In this document: positions 1,993-11,390 of the stretch, one piece after another
Layout of the letters: each line of letters opens with the position of its first letter
Position numbering within the stretch: the first letter of the stretch is position 1
Virus record (IMG/VR): IMGVR_UViG_3300034126_000013
Origin: a virus
Taxonomy: Duplodnaviria > Heunggongvirae > Uroviricota > Caudoviricetes
Direction: 5' to 3' (one strand)
DNA: 13,585 nucleotides
Translations under genes and position numbers: made by a program
Notes under the pieces: generated by a model
The model's input: only the letters and a program-made list of their open reading frames with translations
Database searches by the model: none
Told to the model about the DNA's origin: nothing

Positions 1993-2080
1993 TGGCAGTA
2001 GATGAGTGATTCGAACACTCGGAGCTTTTACACTCGACGGTTTAGCAAACCGTTACATTAAGCCACTCTGTCAATCTACT
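1993..2080 (-). tRNA. tRNA-Ser(GCU)
   Basis: AGUAGAU/AUCUACU acceptor, anticodon loop UUGCUAA, long variable arm, T loop UUCGAAU, G73, CCA. Confidence 0.95.
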
Positions 2081-2084
2081 ATAT

Positions 2085-2175
2085 TGGCGGAAAGCAGAGG
2101 AGTCGAACCCCATCCACATAAGTAGAACCTAGTTTTCAAGACTAGTCGCAGGCCAACCCCGCTGCTTTACTTTCC
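2085..2175 (-). tRNA. tRNA-Ser(UGA), atypical D region
   Basis: GGAAAGU/GCUUUCC acceptor, CUAGU-CUUGAAA-ACUAG, long variable arm, T loop UUCGACU, G73, CCA; AAA connector instead of U8-A9. Confidence 0.9.
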
Positions 2176-2283
2176 ATATCGCGTTTGCTGCCATTATTAC
2201 CAAGCGGCTAAACCCTATGGGTACACGGCGAGGCTGGTACGATTACCTCATCTACTTAAAGACTAATAACCTTTTCAACAAAT

Positions 2284-2359
2284 TGGTCACCCCTGAAGGA
2301 CTCGAACCTTCGACTTCTCAGTTCCAAACCGAGCACTCTACCAACTGAGCTAAGAGGAG
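2284..2359 (-). tRNA. tRNA-Pro(UGG)
   Basis: 76-nt cloverleaf, C1-G72, anticodon loop UUUGGAA, A73, CCA. Confidence 0.95.
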
Positions 2360-2366
2360 TTTTAAT

Positions 2367-2451
2367 TGGTGGTTCATCTAGGACTCGAACCTAGGATGTA
2401 TCAATGTGCCGGGTTACAGCCGGTCGTCTTCGCCGCTCGACGCAATGAACC
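2367..2451 (-). tRNA. tRNA-Tyr(GUA)
   Basis: GGUUCAU/AUGAACC acceptor, loop CUGUAAC, long variable region, CUAGG-UUCGAGU-CCUAG, CCA. Confidence 0.95.
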
Positions 2452-2480
2452 ATATTTATTTTAACAAGCGATATTCTCAA

Positions 2481-2574
2481 GCCTGTTTGAATTAGTACCG
2501 GGATATTTCAGTATGTACTAGTATTTAACTTCATATCCCTGTTGAGCTTACCTTATTCATTCCAAGTAACAGAC
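2481..2574 (-). ncRNA. Putative pseudoknotted RNA in the tRNA array
   Basis: Four helices by hand: GUCUGUU/AACAGGC, UGAAU/AUUCA, GGGAUAU/AUAUCCC, and loop UAGUAC pairing with downstream GUACUA. Confidence 0.45.
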
Positions 2575-2579
2575 GTATT

Positions 2580-2652
2580 CACGTAAGCAGGGAATCGAAC
2601 CCTAATAAGTTATCTCACATAATGGGGCGTATACCCCGTTCGCTATTGTTGA
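2580..2652 (-). pseudogene. Degenerate tRNA (His GUG-like) with intact D and T arms
   Basis: 73-nt canonical spacing; D arm GCG/CGC with GG; T arm UAGGG-UUCGAUU-CCCUG; U-GUG-A at the anticodon position; acceptor and anticodon stems do not pair; no CCA. Confidence 0.55.
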
Positions 2653-2710
2653 CTTAAGTCGAATAGCATTTCTACGAATTCGTGAAGCAGTTTAACGTCG
2701 TGTTCAGGAC

Positions 2711-2809
2711 AACATTCAATAAAGCGCTTTAATCCACTAAGCTATCAGCCCTGTTAGGCGGGCCGTCCGAGACAAGGGACTTGAACCCAAGTTCTCTTTA
2801 TCAAAAGTT
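2711..2809 (-). ncRNA. Circularly permuted tRNA-like RNA (YrlA/Y-RNA-like topology)
   Basis: 5'->3': long stem strand, UAAAG, variable AGAAC, T arm (loop UUCAAGU), 7-nt insert, closed acceptor hairpin CGGCCC/GGGCUG, UA, D arm GCUU-AGUGGAUUA-AAGC, G, CUUUA closing onto UAAAG. The closing stem has 14 positions with one U.U mismatch. Confidence 0.7.
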
Positions 2810-2812
2810 TAC

Positions 2813-2938
2813 TTACGAAACCACTTTACCGGAGTAAGGGTTTTTACCTTTCAGACCTTTGTTCGGATGGCCTTTCGACTTCTCCTTACTCTTTTCGATC
2901 TTGGTGTGTTCTTTTGTTGCATCGTAAAACTTAGTCAT
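2813..2938 (-). CDS. 41-aa Lys-rich small protein or leader peptide
   Basis: SD AAAGGAG 8 nt before ATG; MTKFYDATKEHTKIEKSKEKSKGHPNKGLKGKNPYSGKVVS (11 Lys); below the ORF-track cutoff. Confidence 0.6.
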   Translation of the reverse strand: MTKFYDATKEHTKIEKSKEKSKGHPNKGLKGKNPYSGKVVS

Positions 2939-2967
2939 CTTTACAACTCCTTTCTCTCTTTAATGTT

Positions 2968-3043
2968 TGGCTCCCCCGACACGACTCGAACGTGTGACCA
3001 CGGTATTAACAGTACCGCGCTCTACCAACTGAGCTACAGAGGA
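2968..3043 (-). tRNA. tRNA-Asn(GUU)
   Basis: UCCUCUG acceptor, CGGUA-CUGUUAA-UACCG, G73, CCA. Confidence 0.96.
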
Positions 3044-3052
3044 ATATTTGTT

Positions 3053-3127
3053 TGGTGCGGGTACAGAGACTTGAACTCTGACAGACGACTTGGAAGGACG
3101 CCATGCTACCAATTACATCATACACGC
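3053..3127 (-). tRNA. tRNA-Gly(UCC)
   Basis: GCGUGUA acceptor, loop CUUCCAA, CAGAG-UUCAAGU-CUCUG, CCA; A73 and two stem mismatches. Confidence 0.88.
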
Positions 3128-3134
3128 TTTTCTT

Positions 3135-3212
3135 TGGTGGGCCAAGGCGGATTTGAACCGCTCCTTCTTCCTGTTATGAGCAGGTAGCTTTAACCGATTA
3201 AGCTATAAGCCC
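3135..3212 (-). tRNA. tRNA(CAU), probably Ile2 (lysidine) rather than Met
   Basis: G1-C72 (not initiator), loop CUCAUAA, C4-G69 and C29-G41 (Ile2-like features), A73, CCA. Confidence 0.85.
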
Positions 3213-3455: not shown

Positions 3456-3484
3456 ATTATATAGAAACACTCCCATCCTGTCAA
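3456..3484 (-). promoter_or_regulatory. Consensus sigma70 promoter driving the tRNA array
   Basis: TTGACA-17 nt-TATAAT, followed by a GC-rich discriminator GGACCG. Confidence 0.92.
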
Positions 3485-4966: not shown

Positions 4967-4995
4967 ATTATACGGATGTGTACGCATTCTGTCAA
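4967..4995 (-). promoter_or_regulatory. Consensus sigma70 promoter (leftward)
   Basis: TTGACA-17 nt-TATAAT. Confidence 0.88.
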
Positions 4996-5040
4996 GAGGC
5001 AAAAACCTATCGATTGGTGAAAGCTGATAGAAAATATCAA

Positions 5041-5068
5041 TTGACAAGGGTGTTGAACCTGATAGAAT
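5041..5068 (+). promoter_or_regulatory. sigma70 promoter (rightward, extended -10) for the rnl-pnk operon
   Basis: TTGACA-16 nt-TAGAAT with TGn; A/T-rich upstream. Confidence 0.8.
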
Positions 5069-5097
5069 GGACCACATCAACCAACAGGAGAGTCATC

Positions 5098-6195
5098 ATG
5101 CAAGTCATTCAATTCATCAAGGAACACGGTCTGGAAGCACTGACTGAGCAGTTCGCAATCAGTGTCAAGAAGGTGGACGACCTACTGGTCCTCAACTACA
5201 ACCAAATCGATAGCCCAAAGACACACCCAATCGTGATCGAATGCCGTAGCCTCATTCTGGAAGCCAAGACACTCAAGGTTGTAAGCCGATCCTTTGATCG
5301 GTTCTTCAATCACGGCGAAGCACTGAATGTAATGCCTGAGATTGACTGGAGCCTTGCTGTAGCTTACGAAAAGGTTGATGGTAGCCTGATTAAGATTTAT
5401 AACCATAAAGGTCACTGGTGCGTTTCTACGAAGGGTACACCTTATGCAGACAGTGATTGCATGGGTTACGGAATCACTTTCTTCGAACTAGTACTCAAAG
5501 CTCTTGGCTGCAAAGATGATGCTGAGTTCCAAACTCTTTGCAAGATGTCTGACCTGTGGCACTCATTCACATATATCTTCGAACTGACATCTGCTGAAAA
5601 CCGTGTTGTAAAGCGTTATGAAGGCTACAAATTGCATTACTTGGCTACTCGTGATAATCCAAGTGGTCGCTATGTGAGTGATACTGAAAAAGATCGTGCA
5701 TTAGCTCTTGGTGCACTTGAAATTGAAGAATATCGCTTCAACACAGTTGATGAGTGTATGCGTACTTCTCGTGAATTGAAAAACCTTGATGAAGGATATG
5801 TTATTTATCAAGGTGGTGTTCCTATTGCAAAAGTGAAATCACCAGCGTATGTTGCCGTGCATCACATTCGCGGTGAAGGCTTGAACCCAAAACGGATCAT
5901 GCAATTGGTTTTGGTGAATGAGCAGGATGAATACCTTCAGTATTTTCCAGATGACCGTGTTGTTATGGAGCCATATATTAAAGCTAAAAAAATCCTTGAC
6001 TTGACTATCTTGGGTACTTACAATGGAATCAAGCACATCGAAGATCAAAAGGACTTCGCTCGCCAAGCAGGTGTAATGCCATTCAAAGCGGCGTTGTTCC
6101 AAGCTCGACAAAAGAACATCTGTGCAATTCAGGCTTTCAACGATCAACGTGAAATTTATAAAATGGAAATTCTCAAGGGGTATGTCGTAAAATGA
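5098..6195 (+). CDS. rnlA: RNA ligase, T4 Rnl1 family
   Basis: Motif I YEKVDGSLI, FELTS, EGYV, KVKSPAY; start reassigned to ATG 5098 after SD AGGAGAG (the ORF-track start at 4978 overlaps the promoters). Confidence 0.9.
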   Translation: MQVIQFIKEHGLEALTEQFAISVKKVDDLLVLNYNQIDSPKTHPIVIECRSLILEAKTLKVVSRSFDRFFNHGEALNVMPEIDWSLAVAYEKVDGSLIKIYNHKGHWCVSTKGTPYADSDCMGYGITFFELVLKALGCKDDAEFQTLCKMSDLWHSFTYIFELTSAENRVVKRYEGYKLHYLATRDNPSGRYVSDTEKDRALALGALEIEEYRFNTVDECMRTSRELKNLDEGYVIYQGGVPIAKVKSPAYVAVHHIRGEGLNPKRIMQLVLVNEQDEYLQYFPDDRVVMEPYIKAKKILDLTILGTYNGIKHIEDQKDFARQAGVMPFKAALFQARQKNICAIQAFNDQREIYKMEILKGYVVK

Positions 6196-6314
6196 AAGGT
6201 TTCGCCAAGGTTGAAAAAGCTGATTTGCTAGCTACAACAGATGGTTATGTTCTGGTCGATGACAAAATGGCCAGCGTAATTGTGAAATACAAAATATATT
6301 TGGAGAAAGTGTAA
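6192..6314 (+). CDS. Hypothetical protein (40 aa)
   Basis: MKGFAKVEKADLLATTDGYVLVDDKMASVIVKYKIYLEKV; ATGA and TAATG overlaps on both sides. Confidence 0.7.
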   Translation: MKGFAKVEKADLLATTDGYVLVDDKMASVIVKYKIYLEKV

Positions 6315-7195
6315 TGCGTGCAATTATTACAGTAGGTGTACCAGCTTCAGGCAAAACAACCTTTGCAAACGAAATGGTTAGCAAGTTTGGATTCCGTGAT
6401 ATCAATCGGGACTTCATCCGATTCAATCTGGTAAAGCCCGGTTCCACTTGGGCAACCTACAAGTTCAACAAGGCAAATGAACGTGCTGTTGACGATATCC
6501 ACGGCAAAATGATTATGGAGTCTTGGGAAAACGAAGAAGACATCATCATTTCGGATACCAACCTTAACACCAAACGTCGTCGTGTATTGATTGAACGCCT
6601 ACAAGACTTGGGTTATGATGTTGAAGTTAAGCCGTTCGAAATCAGTCGTAAAGAAGCACTGAAGCGTGATAACCTTCGTGCGAATGGTGTTGGTCATGAT
6701 ATCATCTATCGAATGATGCAGAAATGGAACGAGTTCGTCGGTCGGCTTACGTACACACCAGATACATCGTTGCAGAAAGCAGTCATCTTCGACGTTGACG
6801 GCACAATTGCTGAGATGAATGGTCGTGGTCCTTTTGAATGGCATCGTGTTGGTGAGGATAAACCTCGTGAAATGATTATCAAAATGCTTCAGGGTTATGC
6901 AAACCTTGGATTCCATATCATTATCTGCTCAGGTCGATCTGATGAATGTTTCAAAGAAACAGCAGAATGGCTTGACAAATATGTAGGATTGAATTACTGG
7001 GACAAGCTTTACATGCGTAAGGCTGGTGACTATCGGAAAGATACCGAAATTAAAGAGGAAATCTTCTGGACACACCTCGCAGATAAGTATAACATCGTGG
7101 CTTGTGTTGATGACCGACCAATGATGATTCGGCTTTGGCATGAACTGAAAATCGAAAACGTGATCGCAGTAGCCGATCCATACATTGAATTTTAA
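6314..7195 (+). CDS. pseT: Polynucleotide 5'-kinase / 3'-phosphatase (T4 PseT-like)
   Basis: N-terminal P-loop GVPASGKTT with RD motif; C-terminal HAD motifs FDVDGT, SGR, K and DDR. Confidence 0.95.
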   Translation: MRAIITVGVPASGKTTFANEMVSKFGFRDINRDFIRFNLVKPGSTWATYKFNKANERAVDDIHGKMIMESWENEEDIIISDTNLNTKRRRVLIERLQDLGYDVEVKPFEISRKEALKRDNLRANGVGHDIIYRMMQKWNEFVGRLTYTPDTSLQKAVIFDVDGTIAEMNGRGPFEWHRVGEDKPREMIIKMLQGYANLGFHIIICSGRSDECFKETAEWLDKYVGLNYWDKLYMRKAGDYRKDTEIKEEIFWTHLADKYNIVACVDDRPMMIRLWHELKIENVIAVADPYIEF

Positions 7196-7208
7196 GGAGA
7201 AACAAAAT

Positions 7209-7424
7209 ATGAGCAAATCAAGTCTGAAATTTAAAGCAGGTGATACAGTTTGCATTATTGACGACACAACATTTCATGGCTTCGAAATCGGTAGCTTCAT
7301 AACTATCGAAAGTATTAAAGACTGGGATAATGGTTTCTTTAGTTATGAAGCTATTGATAAAGATGGTGACTGTATGCTATTTGACGATGACGACTGCTCA
7401 GCAATCCAAGGAGTACTTCAATGA
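7209..7424 (+). CDS. Hypothetical protein (71 aa)
   Basis: SD TAAGGAG, ATG 7209, ATGA overlap downstream. Confidence 0.75.
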   Translation: MSKSSLKFKAGDTVCIIDDTTFHGFEIGSFITIESIKDWDNGFFSYEAIDKDGDCMLFDDDDCSAIQGVLQ

Positions 7425-8251
7425 TTAAGTATAAAACAGGTAATATCCAAACGACAGTTCGTCAGTGGACCTTTCCAGACGGTTGTGTAGGCATCGACCT
7501 GCAACTTGGAAGTCAGCAAGTTGATTTCCTTTGCGCTGAAGTGCATGTGACTTGCATCTTTGGTAGCGAAGGGTTTACAATCAATGACGACATCATTGCA
7601 CTGGCATTCGTTCGTGATGCATTGCGGACTCAATATCCGATTGCAAATATCCATCTGAGCCTACCATACATTCCATATGCTCGCCAAGATCGAGCCTGTA
7701 ACCCCGGTGAGGCTGCTAGCTTGAAAGTAATCGGTAACATGATCAACGGTATGGGTTTCGCTACTGTGCGTTGTGTAGACGCTCACAGCATGGTTGCAGG
7801 GGCATGTATTGACCGACTTTATGTCGAGGATCAGTATTCTGTATTCAGTGGTGTGCGTCAGAGCTTCCGTGAAACGTATATCGTTGCTCCCGATCAAGGT
7901 GCAAGCAAGAAGTGTGAAGACTTTGCAAAGCGTGTTGGTGCGGCTGGTGTTATCACTTGCGCAAAGAACCGTGACCTGAAGACCGGTAAAATCATTGGCT
8001 TCCGTGTAATTGATGACGTTCCACCAAATGCAGACCTTCTGGTTCTGGATGATTTGTGTGACGCTGGTGGTACTTTTATTGCTGTAGCTACTGAGCTACG
8101 CAAGCATGAACCTGCACGTCTGGACTTGGCTATCACACATGGTCTGTTCACGAAAGGTGTTGGTATTGTCAAGGATCATTTCGACAAAGTTTTCACAACA
8201 AATAGCTACAACAGCAATAAAAATGGTGCGATTGTTATTGACTTGGGTTAA
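7421..8251 (+). CDS. prs: Ribose-phosphate pyrophosphokinase-like protein (NARP1 Adps-type ADPR-PP synthetase by context)
   Basis: YIPYARQDR, VDAHS, VAPDQGA and PRTase motif VLDDLCDAGGTF. Confidence 0.92.
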   Translation: MIKYKTGNIQTTVRQWTFPDGCVGIDLQLGSQQVDFLCAEVHVTCIFGSEGFTINDDIIALAFVRDALRTQYPIANIHLSLPYIPYARQDRACNPGEAASLKVIGNMINGMGFATVRCVDAHSMVAGACIDRLYVEDQYSVFSGVRQSFRETYIVAPDQGASKKCEDFAKRVGAAGVITCAKNRDLKTGKIIGFRVIDDVPPNADLLVLDDLCDAGGTFIAVATELRKHEPARLDLAITHGLFTKGVGIVKDHFDKVFTTNSYNSNKNGAIVIDLG

Positions 8252-8266
8252 TCACTCAGGCACAAT
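8238..8266 (+). promoter_or_regulatory. Putative internal promoter
   Basis: TTGACT-17 nt-CACAAT, followed by the leader motif shared with the promoters at 5041 and 10864. Confidence 0.5.
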
Positions 8267-8296
8267 GGCTTCACATTAACGAAACAGGAATATGAC

Positions 8297-8581
8297 ATGA
8301 AAGTCCGCTGCATTGAGAAATCGACACCACGTTCTGACGGTGTACAAGGTCAACCAATTGGTTTGACAATCGGGAAAACGTACAAGGTTGCTGAAGTTCT
8401 TATCGGTGGACGATCTAATCAATATTCAATCATCAATGATGACTTTAAGATTGCACGATACAGTCAGTGTCGTTTTGAAGTTGTCTGCGATGAGCCAGTG
8501 AAAGGTTTACGTGATGCGTTTAACTGGTTGACAACTGAACTTCGTTCACGTATAAAAGAACTTGAAAGTAATCAATACTAG
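8297..8581 (+). CDS. Hypothetical phage protein (94 aa; LTIGKTY..V...Y.I..D...Y...RF pattern)
   Basis: ORF with AGGA SD; pattern resembles small beta-barrel phage proteins (inference). Confidence 0.75.
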   Translation: MKVRCIEKSTPRSDGVQGQPIGLTIGKTYKVAEVLIGGRSNQYSIINDDFKIARYSQCRFEVVCDEPVKGLRDAFNWLTTELRSRIKELESNQY

Positions 8582-8590
8582 GAGAAAGAC

Positions 8591-9007
8591 ATGAGCATTA
8601 CATTGCGTTTAGATACAACTGGTTTGCGTAAAATGATCGAAGACAACCCTGAGTTCAAGATCGAGATTCAAAAAGGTGTGCTTGACAACATTAACTCAGA
8701 TAACATTGAACAAGCAGTTCGTACAAAGATTGAAATTGTACTTCGAAGCATGTGTAAGGAAGAGGGTAACTACTATAACAAAAAGTATACAATTACGGAT
8801 GCTAAACTTATCGAAGCAATGAGGCTTATTGTAGAACAACAGGTTGTTGAACTTTCTGAAACTGCAATCAAAAATAATATTGCTGATATTATTAGCGGCA
8901 TTGCATTAGAACTACGTCGTGATATGAAAGCTAATCTAAAGGCAAGCATTCTTGAAGTAATGACGCCTGAGCTTGCTAAAGAAATCCTCATTGCAAAACT
9001 TGTATAA
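8591..9007 (+). CDS. Hypothetical helical protein (138 aa)
   Basis: SD AGGAGA; fills the gap before the NAMPT-like gene. Confidence 0.8.
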   Translation: MSITLRLDTTGLRKMIEDNPEFKIEIQKGVLDNINSDNIEQAVRTKIEIVLRSMCKEEGNYYNKKYTITDAKLIEAMRLIVEQQVVELSETAIKNNIADIISGIALELRRDMKANLKASILEVMTPELAKEILIAKLV

Positions 9008-9017
9008 GGAGAAACAC

Positions 9018-10817
9018 ATGAAACTTTTCGCAGCCTTTCTGTCTGATGGTTACAAACTGGGTCACCCTGACATGTACGCAGATGGTACTGAAGTCGTATC
9101 TTCTAACCTTACGCCACGTGGTGACAAGATTTATCGCAGGTCGTGCACTCGTTACTATGACGGTAAGCTCACTGTAATCGGTCACGCTGGTGCAATCCAA
9201 GAAATCGTTGAGATGTGGGACGACTTCTTCAAGATGGATCGAGGTATTGCAATCGCTCGATTCAAACTGCTGTGCGACCATTACTTTGGTTACGATGTAA
9301 TCACAACTGACCGTCTTGCATTGCTTCACAAGTTGGGTTATCTTCCTCTGGAGATTCGTACTCTCGACGAAGGTAGTAAAGTCAACATGGGCGTTCCAGT
9401 TCTGACAATCCGTAACACCATTTATCATGCGTTTTGGTTGGTGAACTTCATTGAAACCGTAATCAGCAACTTGACTTGGAAACCGTCTACCGCTGCAACC
9501 ATCGCTCAGGAATATCGTGCGATGCTGACTGACTTTGCAATCCGTACTGGTACTCCGCTTGATGTTGTAAATATTCAGGCTCACAACTTTGCTGATCGTG
9601 GTATGTCCGGTTTCGAAGACGCAGCACGTACTGGTTTCGGTCACGCTGCAAGCTTCCTCGGTTCTGATTCGTTGGGTACGGTTATGTACGCTCAACAATA
9701 CTATCGTGCCGGTAACTTTGTTTCCTGCTCGGTTCCGGCAACGGAACACGCTGTATCTACTAGCAACATTCTGCGAATTGAGAATGAGATTTATGATGGT
9801 ACTTACAAATTTAAGAATGAAGAACATACTCAAATTTTTGTAAACATGAATGTAGTTGGTGGTGATCTGCGACTTATCGCTGAAATCATGTTCATGTACG
9901 AACTGATGCTGAAGTTTCCAGTTGGTATCCTATCGTATGTAGCTGATAGCTTTGACTTCTACGGTCTGATTTCTCGTGGTTTGCCATACCTGAAAGATGT
10001 AATCCTGCGACGTGAATCGAACGGTGTAACTCCCGGTCGTCTGGTTATTCGTCCTGATTCGGGTGATCCATTGACAGTTCTGTGTGGTGTCAAGGTTCAT
10101 GATATGCCTCATAGCACTCAGTCTTTTATTGATGAATGTGATGAAGCATACGATAGTCTTTCTGACATTGCCGACGGATACAACAACGGTAAGGAGGAAG
10201 AAACTTTCTACATTCGAACTACAGATGGTGATGTTATTGAAGTTCACGCTTCGTATGAATATGAGCGTTACTATAATACTTGGTCCTATACTGGCTGTTC
10301 TGCACGTGTTGTTGAGTTGACCGTTGAACAACGTGGTGCAATCGATGTACTCGGTGAAATCTTTGGCTTTGACCTGACTCCAACTGGTCACAAGCTGTTG
10401 AATGACCACATTGGTCTGATTTACGGTGACTCGATTACCACAACTCGCTGCCTGAGTATTCTGGAACGCATGGATGAGATGGGTTTTGCATCCGGTTGTG
10501 CAATGTTCGGTATTGGTAGCTACACTTATCAGTGTGTGACTCGTGATACCTTTGGTTTCGCAGTCAAGGCAACATACACTCGTGTTAACGGTAAGTGCAT
10601 TCCGATCTTCAAAGACCCGAAGACCGATAGCTCCAAGAAGTCTGCAAAAGGTCTGTTGTATGTAGGTATTGGTGAGAACAATGAACCTGAACTGCTGGAT
10701 AATGTGTCAATGGAAATTCATACGTCTGAAGAGAACCTGTTGAAAGTTCGCTTCCTCGATGGTCAGTTCTACAACATGCCAACCCTTGATGGAATTCGTG
10801 CAAAACTGATGGTTTAA
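9018..10817 (+). CDS. nadV: Nicotinamide phosphoribosyltransferase-like protein (NARP1 Namat-type by context)
   Basis: DGYKLGH, HNFADRG, SVPATEH, SYVADSFD, VIRPDSGDP, LIYGDSI, KDPKTD..KKSAKG; start at ATG 9018 after SD AGGAGA. Confidence 0.94.
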   Translation: MKLFAAFLSDGYKLGHPDMYADGTEVVSSNLTPRGDKIYRRSCTRYYDGKLTVIGHAGAIQEIVEMWDDFFKMDRGIAIARFKLLCDHYFGYDVITTDRLALLHKLGYLPLEIRTLDEGSKVNMGVPVLTIRNTIYHAFWLVNFIETVISNLTWKPSTAATIAQEYRAMLTDFAIRTGTPLDVVNIQAHNFADRGMSGFEDAARTGFGHAASFLGSDSLGTVMYAQQYYRAGNFVSCSVPATEHAVSTSNILRIENEIYDGTYKFKNEEHTQIFVNMNVVGGDLRLIAEIMFMYELMLKFPVGILSYVADSFDFYGLISRGLPYLKDVILRRESNGVTPGRLVIRPDSGDPLTVLCGVKVHDMPHSTQSFIDECDEAYDSLSDIADGYNNGKEEETFYIRTTDGDVIEVHASYEYERYYNTWSYTGCSARVVELTVEQRGAIDVLGEIFGFDLTPTGHKLLNDHIGLIYGDSITTTRCLSILERMDEMGFASGCAMFGIGSYTYQCVTRDTFGFAVKATYTRVNGKCIPIFKDPKTDSSKKSAKGLLYVGIGENNEPELLDNVSMEIHTSEENLLKVRFLDGQFYNMPTLDGIRAKLMV

Positions 10818-10823
10818 CTGATG

Positions 10824-10849
10824 ACCCCGCTTCGGCGGGGTTTTCTTTT
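10824..10849 (+). terminator. Intrinsic terminator
   Basis: ACCCCGC-UUCG-GCGGGGU followed by UUUCUUUU. Confidence 0.93.
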
Positions 10850-10863
10850 GCCTAAAATAAAGC

Positions 10864-10891
10864 TTGACGTGGTTTACTCATCTGATACAAT
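10864..10891 (+). promoter_or_regulatory. sigma70 promoter (extended -10)
   Basis: TTGACG-16 nt-TACAAT with TGn, immediately after the terminator. Confidence 0.78.
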
Positions 10892-10919
10892 GGACACATC
10901 AAAAACGGGAGAGACAAAG

Positions 10920-11390
10920 ATGGAAGAGCAAATGGTAATGGCATTGGTTTTCGCAGCAGAGAAACACAAGGATCAAATGTATGGTGACAAGCCATACCTG
11001 TATCACCTTTATCAAGTTGACAACCTTGTAACGCGAATCTATGCGAAGGTGAGTTCCCCAAGTGAACCATTCTCCAAAGAACCGGGAGATGAAGTGGACA
11101 ACCTGCGTGCTATTGCTTTCCTGCACGATGTGATTGAAGACACCGATGCAACTTACGAAGATTTGTACGATGCTGGTTTCAACGAACATGTTGTTCAAGC
11201 TGTCGGTATGCTCAGCAAGGTTGATGGTGAAAGTTACGAGCAGTACATTGAAGGTGTTTTGACAAATGAGCTTGCACGCAAAGTTAAGCTGTGCGATACT
11301 AGTGCCAACTTGATGAATAGCATTCAAGAAGGTAATGCATACCGTATCAACAAATACAGCAAGCAGATTCAATTACTCGGTGGATTCTAA
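10920..11390 (+). CDS. HD-domain hydrolase, SpoT/Mesh1 (small alarmone hydrolase)-like
   Basis: HKDQMYGDKPYLYH, FLHDVIEDT, KVKLCD...N motifs; start at ATG 10920 after SD GGGAGAG. Confidence 0.85.
   Translation: MEEQMVMALVFAAEKHKDQMYGDKPYLYHLYQVDNLVTRIYAKVSSPSEPFSKEPGDEVDNLRAIAFLHDVIEDTDATYEDLYDAGFNEHVVQAVGMLSKVDGESYEQYIEGVLTNELARKVKLCDTSANLMNSIQEGNAYRINKYSKQIQLLGGF

What the first reader, a model, noticed from the sequence alone, without database searches (positions are those of the whole stretch)
2711..2809. Circularly permuted tRNA-like RNA: 3' half before 5' half, closed acceptor, open anticodon end
All tRNA parts are present in permuted order: UAAAG (39-43), AGAAC (variable), UUGGG-UUCAAGU-CCCUU (T), a 7-nt insert GUCUCGG, ACGGCCC, loop GCCUAACA, GGGCUGA, UA, GCUU-AGUGGAUUA-AAGC (D), G, CUUUA (27-31). 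The anticodon stem is extended into a 14-position duplex with one U.U mismatch. The 5' half closely resembles the neighbouring tRNA(CAU) (GGGCUUAUAGCUUAAUCGGUUAAAGC). This T-acceptor-D order is the known topology of bacterial YrlA Y RNAs and of permuted tRNA genes in red algae and some archaea, but no Ro60/Rsr gene and no BHB motif is visible here. The upstream strand reads CU-UUU-GA at positions 32-38 (Lys-like), and the window has no canonical tRNA-Lys. It could be an elbow-displaying decoy with no cleavable anticodon loop, or a precursor that the phage Pnk/Rnl1 could join. Both ideas are inference.
Basis: partly seen in the sequence, partly recalled or inferred. Interest (0 to 1): 0.85.

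Follow-up and report, generated by a model that had tools for sequence, protein, structure and literature searches.

The report
Phage permuted tRNA-like RNA family
A roughly 90-base RNA in this phage's tRNA gene cluster has all the parts of a tRNA in rearranged order with no anticodon loop; the same element is conserved in about two dozen unrelated phages, so it is a real tRNA look-alike family, not described before as far as I could find, whose job is still unknown.

Summary
On the minus strand, 2711-2809 reads: closing-helix strand, T hairpin, closed acceptor-like hairpin, D arm, closing-helix strand.

It is not a chance abutment of broken tRNAs. The same element occurs once per genome in 22 distinct phage sequences. 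These include Seunavirus phages, one T5-like phage, Pseudomonas pf16, jumbo phages and metagenomic contigs. A strict core pattern found it in none of 185,579 bacterial and archaeal genomes.

- **Covariation:** all 8 closing-helix pairs and all 6 T-stem pairs covary.
- **Covariance model:** members score 76-100 bits and everything else scores 31.5 bits or less.

The nearest known kind is bacterial YrlA, a circularly permuted tRNA mimic. This family fails the YrlA model, has no conserved Ro-binding helix, and 13 of 14 carrier records lack Ro60/Rsr.

The idea that it is a precursor joined by Pnk/Rnl1 is not supported. Rnl1 is missing in four of five other carriers, and the "anticodon loop" bases lie inside a 6-27 bp helix.

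Best reading: a stable tRNA-shaped mimic cut out of the tRNA operon transcript that engages a host tRNA-binding factor. That function is inferred, not shown.

The parts
2796..2809 (-). 5' strand of the closing helix (AACUUUUGAUAAAG). It takes the place of the anticodon-stem 3' strand.
   Evidence: Pairs with 2711-2724: 13 pairs and one U.U mismatch. All 8 inner pairs covary across 19 sequences. RNAalifold predicts the helix independently.
2792..2795 (-). AGAA linker, in the position of the variable loop.
   Evidence: AGAA or AGAU in nearly all members.
2773..2791 (-). T-like hairpin: 6-bp stem CUUGGG/CCCUUG with two U.U mismatches, and loop UUCAAGU.
   Evidence: All 6 stem pairs show compensatory changes in relatives, for example CCGGG/CCCGG, UCGGG/CCCGA and CCAAUG/CAUUGG.
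2771..2772 (-). UC. It pairs with G6-A7 (2745-2746) and forms the inner two pairs of the acceptor-like stem.
   Evidence: U-A in 14 sequences and A-U in 5, never unpaired. C-G in 19/19.
2765..2770 (-). 6-nt bulge UCGGAC (consensus NNGGAM) in the 3' strand of the acceptor-like stem.
   Evidence: GGA is invariant in all 22 members. It is absent from the bulge-less cousin L036. With the bulge removed in silico, ARAGORN accepts 16/22 re-joined sequences; with it kept, 2/22.
2747..2764 (-). Closed acceptor-like hairpin: GGCCC, loop GCCUAACA, GGGCU.
   Evidence: The stem is invariant apart from a G.U/G-C switch. The loop always begins GCC and ends AAYA, with 1-6 variable bases between. The window has the shortest loop. 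This held in BLAST-found members and in a scan that left the loop free.
2743..2746 (-). G6 A7, then U8 A9.
   Evidence: G6 pairs with C2771 and A7 with U2772. U8 and A9 are invariant.
2725..2742 (-). D arm: GCUU, loop AGUGGAUUA, AAGC, then G26.
   Evidence: The stem is paired in 19/19 sequences. The D loop starts with A and contains GG wherever the T loop is tRNA-like. It changes together with the T loop in L023 and L027.
2711..2724 (-). 3' strand of the closing helix (CUUUAUUGAAUGUU).
3456..3484 (-). Consensus sigma-70 promoter (TTGACA-17-TATAAT) upstream of the tRNA cluster. It is the likely source of the transcript that carries the element.
   Evidence: 12 of 12 consensus matches. That it drives this transcript is inferred.

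Best explanation
2711-2809 (minus strand) encodes a member of a phage-borne family of roughly 90-110-nt structured RNAs that I could not find described. Each member is a circularly permuted tRNA body.

- A plain helix of variable sequence and length stands where the anticodon stem would be, and it carries the two RNA ends.
- From it branch a T-like hairpin, a closed acceptor-like hairpin and a D arm.
- The acceptor-like hairpin has an invariant 6-nt bulge (NNGGAM) and an invariant loop (GCC...AAYA).

The RNA is transcribed as part of the phage tRNA operon. It is probably freed by the same enzymes that free the flanking tRNAs, followed by trimming back to the closing helix. It cannot decode because it has no anticodon loop, and it is not a tRNA precursor.

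The most likely function is a trans-acting tRNA mimic. An L-shaped scaffold would present the invariant acceptor hairpin, bulge and D-stem region to a conserved host tRNA-binding factor. Candidates are RNase P or a CCA-end enzyme, or a tRNA-directed defence protein. The fold, family, strand and context are shown. The processing route and the partner are inferred.
For: **Family and conservation**
- There are 22 distinct copies, in 12 isolated phages of four or more unrelated groups plus IMG/VR and metagenome contigs.
- There is one copy per genome.
- The strict core pattern found none in 185,579 prokaryote genomes.

**Structure**
- The closing helix covaries at 8/8 pairs and the T stem at 6/6.
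- The U-A/A-U switch at pair 7-66 is perfect.
- 94.5% of cells are paired, against 24-52% for slid controls.
- RNAalifold recovers the four helices independently.
- The G.U pair at 5-68 in 13/19 sequences fixes the strand.

**tRNA-likeness**
- U8, A14, G18G19, G26 and the T loop UUCRANY are present.
- Where the T loop departs from that consensus, the D loop changes with it: CGUU/AACG in L027 and UGCC/GGCG in L023.
- ARAGORN/22 in native order, 16/22 after re-joining the halves and removing the bulge, and 0/22 shuffled.

**Context**
- The element lies inside tRNA clusters. It often starts 1-4 nt after the CCA of the preceding tRNA and ends a few nt before the next tRNA.
- The stand-alone Peetri copy instead has a 27-bp closing helix.
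- In GSW6 the element arrived together with an extra tRNA as a 226-nt insertion absent from its close relative EH3.
- No protein family is shared by the neighbourhoods of different lineages. This points to a host partner, or at least one not encoded nearby.

**Precedent**
YrlA is a crystallographically verified permuted tRNA mimic with a closed acceptor loop (PMC4201824; bioRxiv 10.1101/312249).
Against: - No expression, processing or binding data exist for any member, so the function is pure inference.
- The invariance of the acceptor helix, bulge and loop is closer to what is seen in ribozymes or aptamers than in simple protein decoys.
- Part of the observed invariance is circular. The metagenomic members were retrieved with patterns that required the acceptor or D-arm sequence.
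- The T stem of the window's copy has two U.U mismatches, and its single-sequence fold is not more stable than shuffles (z = -0.9).
- A mimic with a closed acceptor end and no anticodon loop cannot be a substrate decoy for the best-known anticodon nucleases.
Confidence: 0.55

Rival explanations
1. RNase P substrate that becomes a two-piece tRNA-like RNA. RNase P cuts the closed acceptor loop between AAYA and G1. The 3' tail is trimmed to GCC and completed to GCCA by the host CCA-adding enzyme. This gives a nicked, L-shaped molecule with a free acceptor end, which could be charged or could soak up factors that act on tRNA 3' ends.
For: - The acceptor-like stem has 7 pairs, as RNase P prefers.
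- The loop always starts G-C-C directly after the 3' strand, in the position of N73-C74-C75. By established knowledge, bacterial RNase P RNA contacts these bases.
- M. smegmatis YrlA, which has a 7-bp acceptor stem, is cut by RNase P and receives CCA in vivo (PMC4201824).
- A second permuted tRNA-like RNA on contig L021 (1111-1219) encodes a full ACCA after a 7-bp acceptor stem.
Against: - Position 76 is U in most members, A in only three and G in four. Every ordinary tRNA gene beside the element encodes CCA.
- The 6-nt bulge interrupts the acceptor helix, and the T stem has 6 rather than 5 pairs. The distance RNase P measures would therefore be off.
- The window's loop is only 8 nt.
- Position -1 is A, not the preferred U.
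Confidence: 0.2
2. A folded RNA with its own chemistry or ligand, that is a small ribozyme or aptamer built on a tRNA scaffold. The invariant bulge and loop would form an active or binding site rather than a protein-binding surface.
For: About 35 nucleotides are invariant in unpaired or helix positions across very distant phages, while the other helices covary freely. This pattern is typical of ribozymes and riboswitches.
Against: - No Rfam ribozyme or riboswitch family matches, even at E <= 10.
- No gene is consistently downstream, so a cis-regulatory riboswitch role is unlikely.
- The tRNA core nucleotides explain much of the conservation.
Confidence: 0.08
3. A cis-acting processing or stabilising element of the tRNA operon transcript, with no role in trans. 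It would act as a tRNA-shaped punctuation mark that guides RNase P or RNase E, or protects neighbouring RNAs.
For: It is almost always embedded between tRNAs and small ORFs. tRNA-like punctuation is an established way to process polycistronic RNAs.
Against: - Ordinary tRNAs already do this job, so the strong sequence invariance of the acceptor hairpin and bulge is unexplained.
- The Peetri copy stands alone between protein genes.
- The element spreads horizontally as a unit into clusters that work without it, as the GSW6 versus EH3 comparison shows.
Confidence: 0.1
4. A true permuted tRNA gene. The ends would be joined, for example by the phage Pnk and Rnl1, to make an anticodon loop, and the acceptor loop would then be opened.
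For: - All tRNA parts are present in permuted order.
- The window encodes Rnl1 (4978-6195) and Pnkp (6314-7195).
- The phage has no tRNA-Lys.
Against: - The closing helix is a continuous 6-27 bp duplex with unrelated sequence in each phage. There is no conserved 7-nt loop, anticodon or junction motif.
- Rnl1 is absent in 4 of 5 other carriers tested.
- Carriers keep normal tRNA-Lys genes.
- The acceptor stem carries a 6-nt bulge that would be foreign to any known tRNA.
Confidence: 0.03
5. Two decayed tRNA genes that abut by chance: the 3' half of one pseudogene followed by the 5' half of the next.
For: Real tRNA-tRNA junctions give weak hits to the family model at 12-19 bits, and to YrlA.
Against: - The same junction, bulge and loop are conserved in 22 sequences from unrelated phages, with compensatory changes. 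Member scores lie 45 bits or more above any junction.
- Neither missing half is present upstream or downstream.
Confidence: 0.01

Closest known systems
YrlA (Y RNA-like A, Rfam RF02553), the bacterial and phage Ro60/Rsr-associated tRNA mimic
   Same: - Circularly permuted tRNA layout: closing stem, variable linker, T arm, closed acceptor-like stem-loop, UA, D arm, closing stem.
- The tRNA tertiary nucleotides are kept.
- It is thought to derive from tRNA and is sometimes encoded next to tRNAs.
- In M. smegmatis the acceptor loop is opened by RNase P (PMC4201824; 10.1101/312249).
   Different: - The YrlA model gives no hit to any member.
- The closing helix has no conserved Ro-binding sequence.
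- 13 of 14 carrier records lack a TROVE gene, and the one that has it keeps it 12 kb away.
- In YrlA the T and D stems are conserved and the acceptor stem varies. Here the acceptor hairpin and D stem are invariant and the T stem varies.
- This family has a unique NNGGAM bulge and GCC...AAYA loop.
- A YrlA-like RNA and a family member coexist on one contig, L021.
Phage T4 stable RNAs species 1 and 2 (rnaC, rnaD)
   Same: Small stable RNAs of unknown function, encoded inside a phage tRNA cluster and released by tRNA-processing enzymes. rnaC ends in a T-arm-like hairpin.
   Different: There is no sequence or structure match to the family model. The best hit in the T4 region is a tRNA-tRNA junction at 14 bits. 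The T4 RNAs are longer and are not permuted tRNAs.
Permuted tRNA genes of Cyanidioschyzon merolae and some archaea
   Same: The 3' half is encoded before the 5' half, and the acceptor ends are linked by a short intervening loop.
   Different: - Those genes yield real tRNAs through a bulge-helix-bulge cut, circularisation and acceptor-end processing.
- Here there is no anticodon loop and no conserved junction motif. The helix length varies from 6 to 27 bp.
- By established knowledge, bacterial hosts lack the splicing endonuclease.
Two-piece (circularly permuted) tmRNA
   Same: Permuted gene order around the acceptor stem, a T arm, and an intervening segment removed at the acceptor end.
   Different: There is no tag reading frame or pseudoknots. 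ARAGORN finds no tmRNA in the genome. Only the T loop matches the tmRNA model, at 8 bits. Position 3-70 is G-C, so the alanine identity pair is missing.

Membership tests
YrlA (RF02553) | Scores at or above the Rfam gathering threshold of 69 bits. | tested here: not met
   No hit at E <= 10 on the element alone or in the whole genome. No hit on ten other members' loci at E <= 5.
YrlA (RF02553) | Permuted tRNA-like domain: T arm, closed acceptor-like stem-loop and D arm within a closing stem. | tested here: met
   The covariation-supported structure has this order. The re-joined sequences are accepted as tRNA by ARAGORN.
YrlA (RF02553) | Encoded next to a Ro60/Rsr (TROVE) gene. | tested here: not met
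   There is no TROVE gene in the window's genome or in 12 other carrier records. One carrier (G007) has TROVE 12 kb from the element.
YrlA (RF02553) | Conserved Ro-binding module in the stem formed by the 5' and 3' ends. | tested here: not met
   All 8 closing-helix pairs vary freely, with 4-6 pair types per position. There are no conserved bulges, and the length is 6-27 bp.
Canonical tRNA (RF00005) | Cloverleaf in the normal order, with a 7-nt anticodon loop. | tested here: not met
   ARAGORN and the Rfam tRNA model find nothing at 2711-2809. ARAGORN/22 members in native order.
Permuted tRNA gene (red-algal or archaeal type) | The halves re-join to give a conserved anticodon stem-loop, and there is a junction motif for processing. 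| tested here: not met
   The flanks form a continuous helix of unrelated sequence and variable length, and no loop is conserved.
Permuted tRNA gene (red-algal or archaeal type) | A circular or re-ligated RNA intermediate exists. | not testable with these tools
   This needs RT-PCR or long-read RNA sequencing of infected cells.
T4 rnaC/rnaD stable RNAs | Sequence and structure similarity to T4 species 1 or 2 RNA. | tested here: not met
   Model R1 with filters off gives no hit on rnaC or rnaD, apart from a 6.5-bit T-arm fragment.
tmRNA (two-piece) | tRNA-like domain plus a tag-peptide reading frame. | tested here: not met
   ARAGORN with tmRNA search finds none in the genome. The Rfam tmRNA model matches 13 nt of the T loop only.

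The most novel reading that the evidence does not exclude
The closed acceptor loop is opened by host RNase P and completed to GCCA. This would make the first known phage-encoded two-piece tRNA-like molecule. Its free, bulge-marked acceptor end would serve as a sacrificial substrate or trap for host defence enzymes that attack tRNA 3' ends or acceptor stems, or it would be aminoacylated for a non-ribosomal purpose. A single small RNA, moved horizontally between unrelated virulent phages, would then be an RNA-only counter-defence.
Probability: 0.12. Interest if true: 0.9.

Novelty: new variant of a known kind. Interest (0 to 1): 0.7.

Why it matters
Phage tRNA clusters are now seen as weapons against host tRNA-cutting defences, but their non-tRNA RNAs have been ignored since T4's species 1 and 2 RNAs were found.

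This family shows that a permuted tRNA mimic can exist and spread among unrelated virulent phages without Ro60. Until now this kind of RNA was known only as YrlA, the partner of Ro60.

- It gives YrlA biology an independent second example in which the tRNA-like module must work on its own. That may help identify the long-sought factor that binds such modules.
- It offers a compact, well-defined RNA (invariant bulge and loop, freely variable helices) that is easy to mutate and to pull down.
- It is currently mis-annotated as small hypothetical proteins in several deposited genomes.

Tried and rejected
- **Rfam on the window and on the element alone.** No family matched.
- **YrlA model on the genome and on ten member loci.** It gave only tRNA-junction noise.
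- **T4 rnaC/rnaD as relatives.** Rejected.
- **A shared neighbouring protein.** All-against-all comparison of ORFs within 3 kb found nothing shared across lineages except antisense-of-tRNA artefacts.
- **Link to Rnl1.** Rejected.
- **Link to Ro60.** Rejected.
- **A host tRNA with the same 5' half.** A scan of 185,579 genomes gave 55 matches. Only 11 were tRNAs (9 Ala, 1 Lys, 1 Val), so there is no clear target of mimicry.
- **Members with a different acceptor loop or D stem.** Only chance matches appeared, plus one bulge-less cousin.
Rejected on pair counts.
- **Single-sequence folding of the window copy.** Not informative (z = -0.9).
- **A coding reading.** Rejected. Loop lengths differ by non-multiples of three, and there is no ORF of 20 aa or more over the element on its strand.
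- **Literature searches** for a phage permuted tRNA or tRNA mimic. No description of this family was found.

Full report
**What is in the window.** The window is part of a 97-kb IMG/VR phage record. It carries terminase, T4-type RNA ligase 1, polynucleotide kinase-phosphatase and NAD-salvage genes. A cluster of seven tRNA genes lies on the minus strand at 1993-3212, downstream of a perfect sigma-70 consensus promoter at 3484-3456. A 516-nt stretch between tRNA-Asn and tRNA-Tyr contains a 41-codon ORF (2938-2813) and the finding.

**The observation.**
- UAAAG, AGAAC;
- a T-like hairpin with loop UUCAAGU;
- GUCUCGG, ACGGCCC, loop GCCUAACA, GGGCUGA, UA;
- the D arm GCUU-AGUGGAUUA-AAGC, then G and CUUUA.

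The outer strands extend to a 14-position duplex with one U.U mismatch. ARAGORN and Rfam call nothing here.

**It is a conserved element, not an accident.** A sensitive BLAST of the intergenic stretch hit only the ~80-nt core, at 81-94% identity, in phages that share nothing else with this one:
- Seunavirus phages of Cronobacter, Enterobacter and Salmonella (GAP31, EC152, FENT2, KE22/23, NINP13076);
- one T5-like Salmonella phage (GSW6);
- Pseudomonas phages pf16, RVTF4, Psa21, Astolliot, Milchi and Peetri.

Pattern scans added IMG/VR and metagenome copies, giving 22 distinct sequences. The strict core pattern matched none of 185,579 bacterial and archaeal species genomes.

The closest relatives of the window's own phage are phiPMW, PHB09 and Bitten. 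They share its tRNAs and the small ORF but not the element. GSW6 differs from its near-identical relative EH3 by a 226-nt insertion directly after tRNA-Tyr, made of the element plus an extra tRNA-Glu-like gene. The element therefore moves horizontally as a unit within tRNA clusters.

**Structure.** I wrote a structure on a 19-sequence MAFFT alignment (A4).
- 94.5% of cells pair, against 24-52% when partners are slid by 1-3 columns.
- 15 of 25 pairs carry compensatory changes, against 11.4 +/- 1.4 in shuffles.
- All 8 closing-helix pairs and all 6 T-stem pairs covary.
- The closing helix has an unrelated sequence in every lineage and is 6 to 27 bp long.
- RNAalifold, given no structure, returns the same four helices.
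- A G.U pair in the acceptor-like stem in 13 of 19 sequences, and many G.U pairs in the closing helix, fix the functional strand as that of the tRNAs.

A covariance model built from this alignment (R1) scores members at 76-100 bits. Everything else in 187 kb of phage loci scores 31.5 bits or less, and it finds one copy in the window's genome.

**The acceptor stem, revised.** Across the family those two outer pairs form in only 5/19 and 4/19 sequences. The comparative data give this layout instead:
- The G after the T stem pairs with the C before it, making a sixth T-stem pair (C-G in 16 sequences, U-A in 2).
- The next two bases, U/A-C, pair with G6 and A/U7. The pair is U-A in 14 sequences and A-U in 5, never broken.
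- The following six bases, NNGGAM, are a bulge with GGA invariant.
- GGCCC then pairs with G1-Y5.

A bulge-less cousin on contig L036 has exactly this stem without the six bases: CCACC-CCGGCCC paired with GGGCUGG.

An in-silico test agrees. ARAGORN accepts 0/22 members in native order. It accepts 16/22 when the halves are re-joined through an artificial loop and the bulge is removed, 2/22 with the bulge kept, and 0/22 shuffled.

**tRNA-likeness.** U8, A9, a D loop that begins with A and contains GG, G26 and a UUCRANY T loop are present in most members. In the members whose T loop is not tRNA-like, the D loop changes with it and the two loops become complementary: CGUU with AACG in L027, and UGCC with GGCG in L023. 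This is what an elbow contact would require, but it rests on two sequences.

The window's 5' half matches its own tRNA-Met(CAU) at 13 of 14 positions, and the two share the GGGCU/GGCCC acceptor end with a G.U pair. This suggests descent from such a tRNA, most simply by tandem duplication and loss of the outer halves. That origin is inferred.

**Context and likely biogenesis.** In most carriers the closing helix begins 1-4 nt after the encoded CCA of the preceding tRNA and ends a few nt before the next tRNA. Normal tRNA processing plus trimming would therefore release it. This step is inferred.

The Peetri copy lies between protein genes with no annotated tRNA nearby, and it has a 27-bp closing helix. 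That is long enough for RNase III, which is again an inference.

No protein family is shared among the neighbourhoods of different lineages. Several deposited genomes annotate small hypothetical proteins over the element. Loop-length differences that are not multiples of three argue against coding.

**Comparison with what is known.** The topology is that of YrlA, the Ro60/Rsr-associated bacterial Y RNA. Its tRNA-like domain has been solved and described as a circularly permuted tRNA with a closed acceptor loop (PMC4201824; bioRxiv 10.1101/312249). Membership fails on four counts:
- The Rfam YrlA model gives no hit on any member.
- The closing helix has no conserved Ro-binding sequence.
- 13 of 14 carrier records have no TROVE gene, and in the one that does it lies 12 kb away.
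- The conservation pattern is inverted. Here the acceptor hairpin and D stem are invariant and the T stem is free; YrlA conserves the T and D stems and varies the acceptor stem.

Contig L021 carries both a family member (3046-3139) and a separate YrlA-like permuted tRNA-like RNA (1111-1219, 35.8 bits), so the two are distinct. T4's species 1 and 2 RNAs, the classic unexplained RNAs of a phage tRNA cluster, are not related. I found no paper describing this family.

The precursor idea is not supported.
- The Lys-like CUUUUGA is part of the closing duplex.
- The flanks are not conserved, and no 7-nt loop can be formed in common.
- Rnl1 is absent from pf16, GSW6, Psa21 and Astolliot.
- Other carriers keep ordinary tRNA-Lys genes beside the element.

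The decoy idea survives only in general form. Without an anticodon loop the RNA cannot bait anticodon nucleases.

**Most likely function.** The invariant surface is the acceptor hairpin with its GGA bulge, the GCC...AAYA loop, G6/W7, U8/A9 and the D stem. I therefore favour a trans-acting mimic that presents this surface to a conserved host factor that binds tRNA (confidence 0.55 for the whole statement; the fold and family are near certain, the function is inferred).

The GCC directly after the acceptor 3' strand sits where N73-C74-C75 would be. [quoted passage not shown] Against it, position 76 is not A in most members, and the bulge and the extra T-stem pair distort the measured helix. Ribozyme or aptamer, cis-processing element, true permuted tRNA and chance abutment are ranked lower, for the reasons given under rivals.

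**Limits.** There are no expression data. Part of the apparent invariance comes from the search patterns used for the metagenomic members, although the BLAST-found members and a loop-free scan show the same loop. The covariance-model E-values are rough. Host Ro60 status was not examined.

**Earlier scan notes.** The scan's notes hold no copy of this element from other DNA. The only related note is on this same window.

Noticed in passing
window 2570-2700 (minus strand): A second odd tRNA-like piece lies between the element and tRNA-Tyr. It has a good T arm (AGGGUUCGAUUCCCU, 2603-2589) closed by an acceptor-like stem (AUGUGAG/CUUACGU), plus two further hairpins. It folds better than shuffles (z = -3.2), but ARAGORN and Rfam do not call it, and no relative was found in the phage collection.
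   Followed up: partly
window 2813-2938 (minus strand): A 41-aa lysine-rich ORF with a strong ribosome-binding site ends 3 nt before the element. A 47-aa homologue exists on L002, but about 1.2 kb away from that phage's element. The DNA is conserved in phiPMW-like phages that lack the element. The ORF is therefore not a conserved partner of the RNA.
   Followed up: partly
L021:1111-1219: This contig holds a different permuted tRNA-like RNA with a 7-bp acceptor stem, an encoded ACCA, U at -1, a 5-bp anticodon-like stem and no neighbouring tRNA halves. It scores 35.8 bits on the YrlA model. It looks like an RNase P substrate or a genuine permuted tRNA, and it lies on the same contig as a family member.
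   Followed up: partly
L036:1221-1324 (minus strand): A bulge-less cousin of the family (31.5 bits on R1, 34.8 bits on YrlA) lies in a complete 76-kb phage genome. That genome also encodes a 557-aa TROVE/Ro60 protein about 7 kb away.
   Followed up: partly
L006:1488-1713 (Salmonella phage GSW6): Relative to phage EH3, GSW6 has a 226-nt insertion after tRNA-Tyr. It holds the element and an extra tRNA-Glu-like gene with an internal duplication of its anticodon and T region.
   Followed up: yes
window 4978-11390 (plus strand): A gene block encodes T4-type RNA ligase 1, Pnkp kinase-phosphatase, a ribose-phosphate pyrophosphokinase-like protein, a nicotinate/nicotinamide phosphoribosyltransferase-family protein and an HD-domain protein. 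Together these amount to tRNA repair plus NAD salvage, both typical counter-defence functions.
   Followed up: no
L002:5650-5678: Directly upstream of the L002 element is a tRNA 3' end (GGUUCGAUUCCACC...CCACCA) that ARAGORN does not call as a tRNA. It may be another non-canonical tRNA.
   Followed up: no
L009:1199-1321, L010:1199-1321, L015:1127-1374: The deposited annotations of KE22, NINP13076 and FENT2 place small hypothetical protein genes over the RNA element. These are probably mis-annotations.
   Followed up: partly
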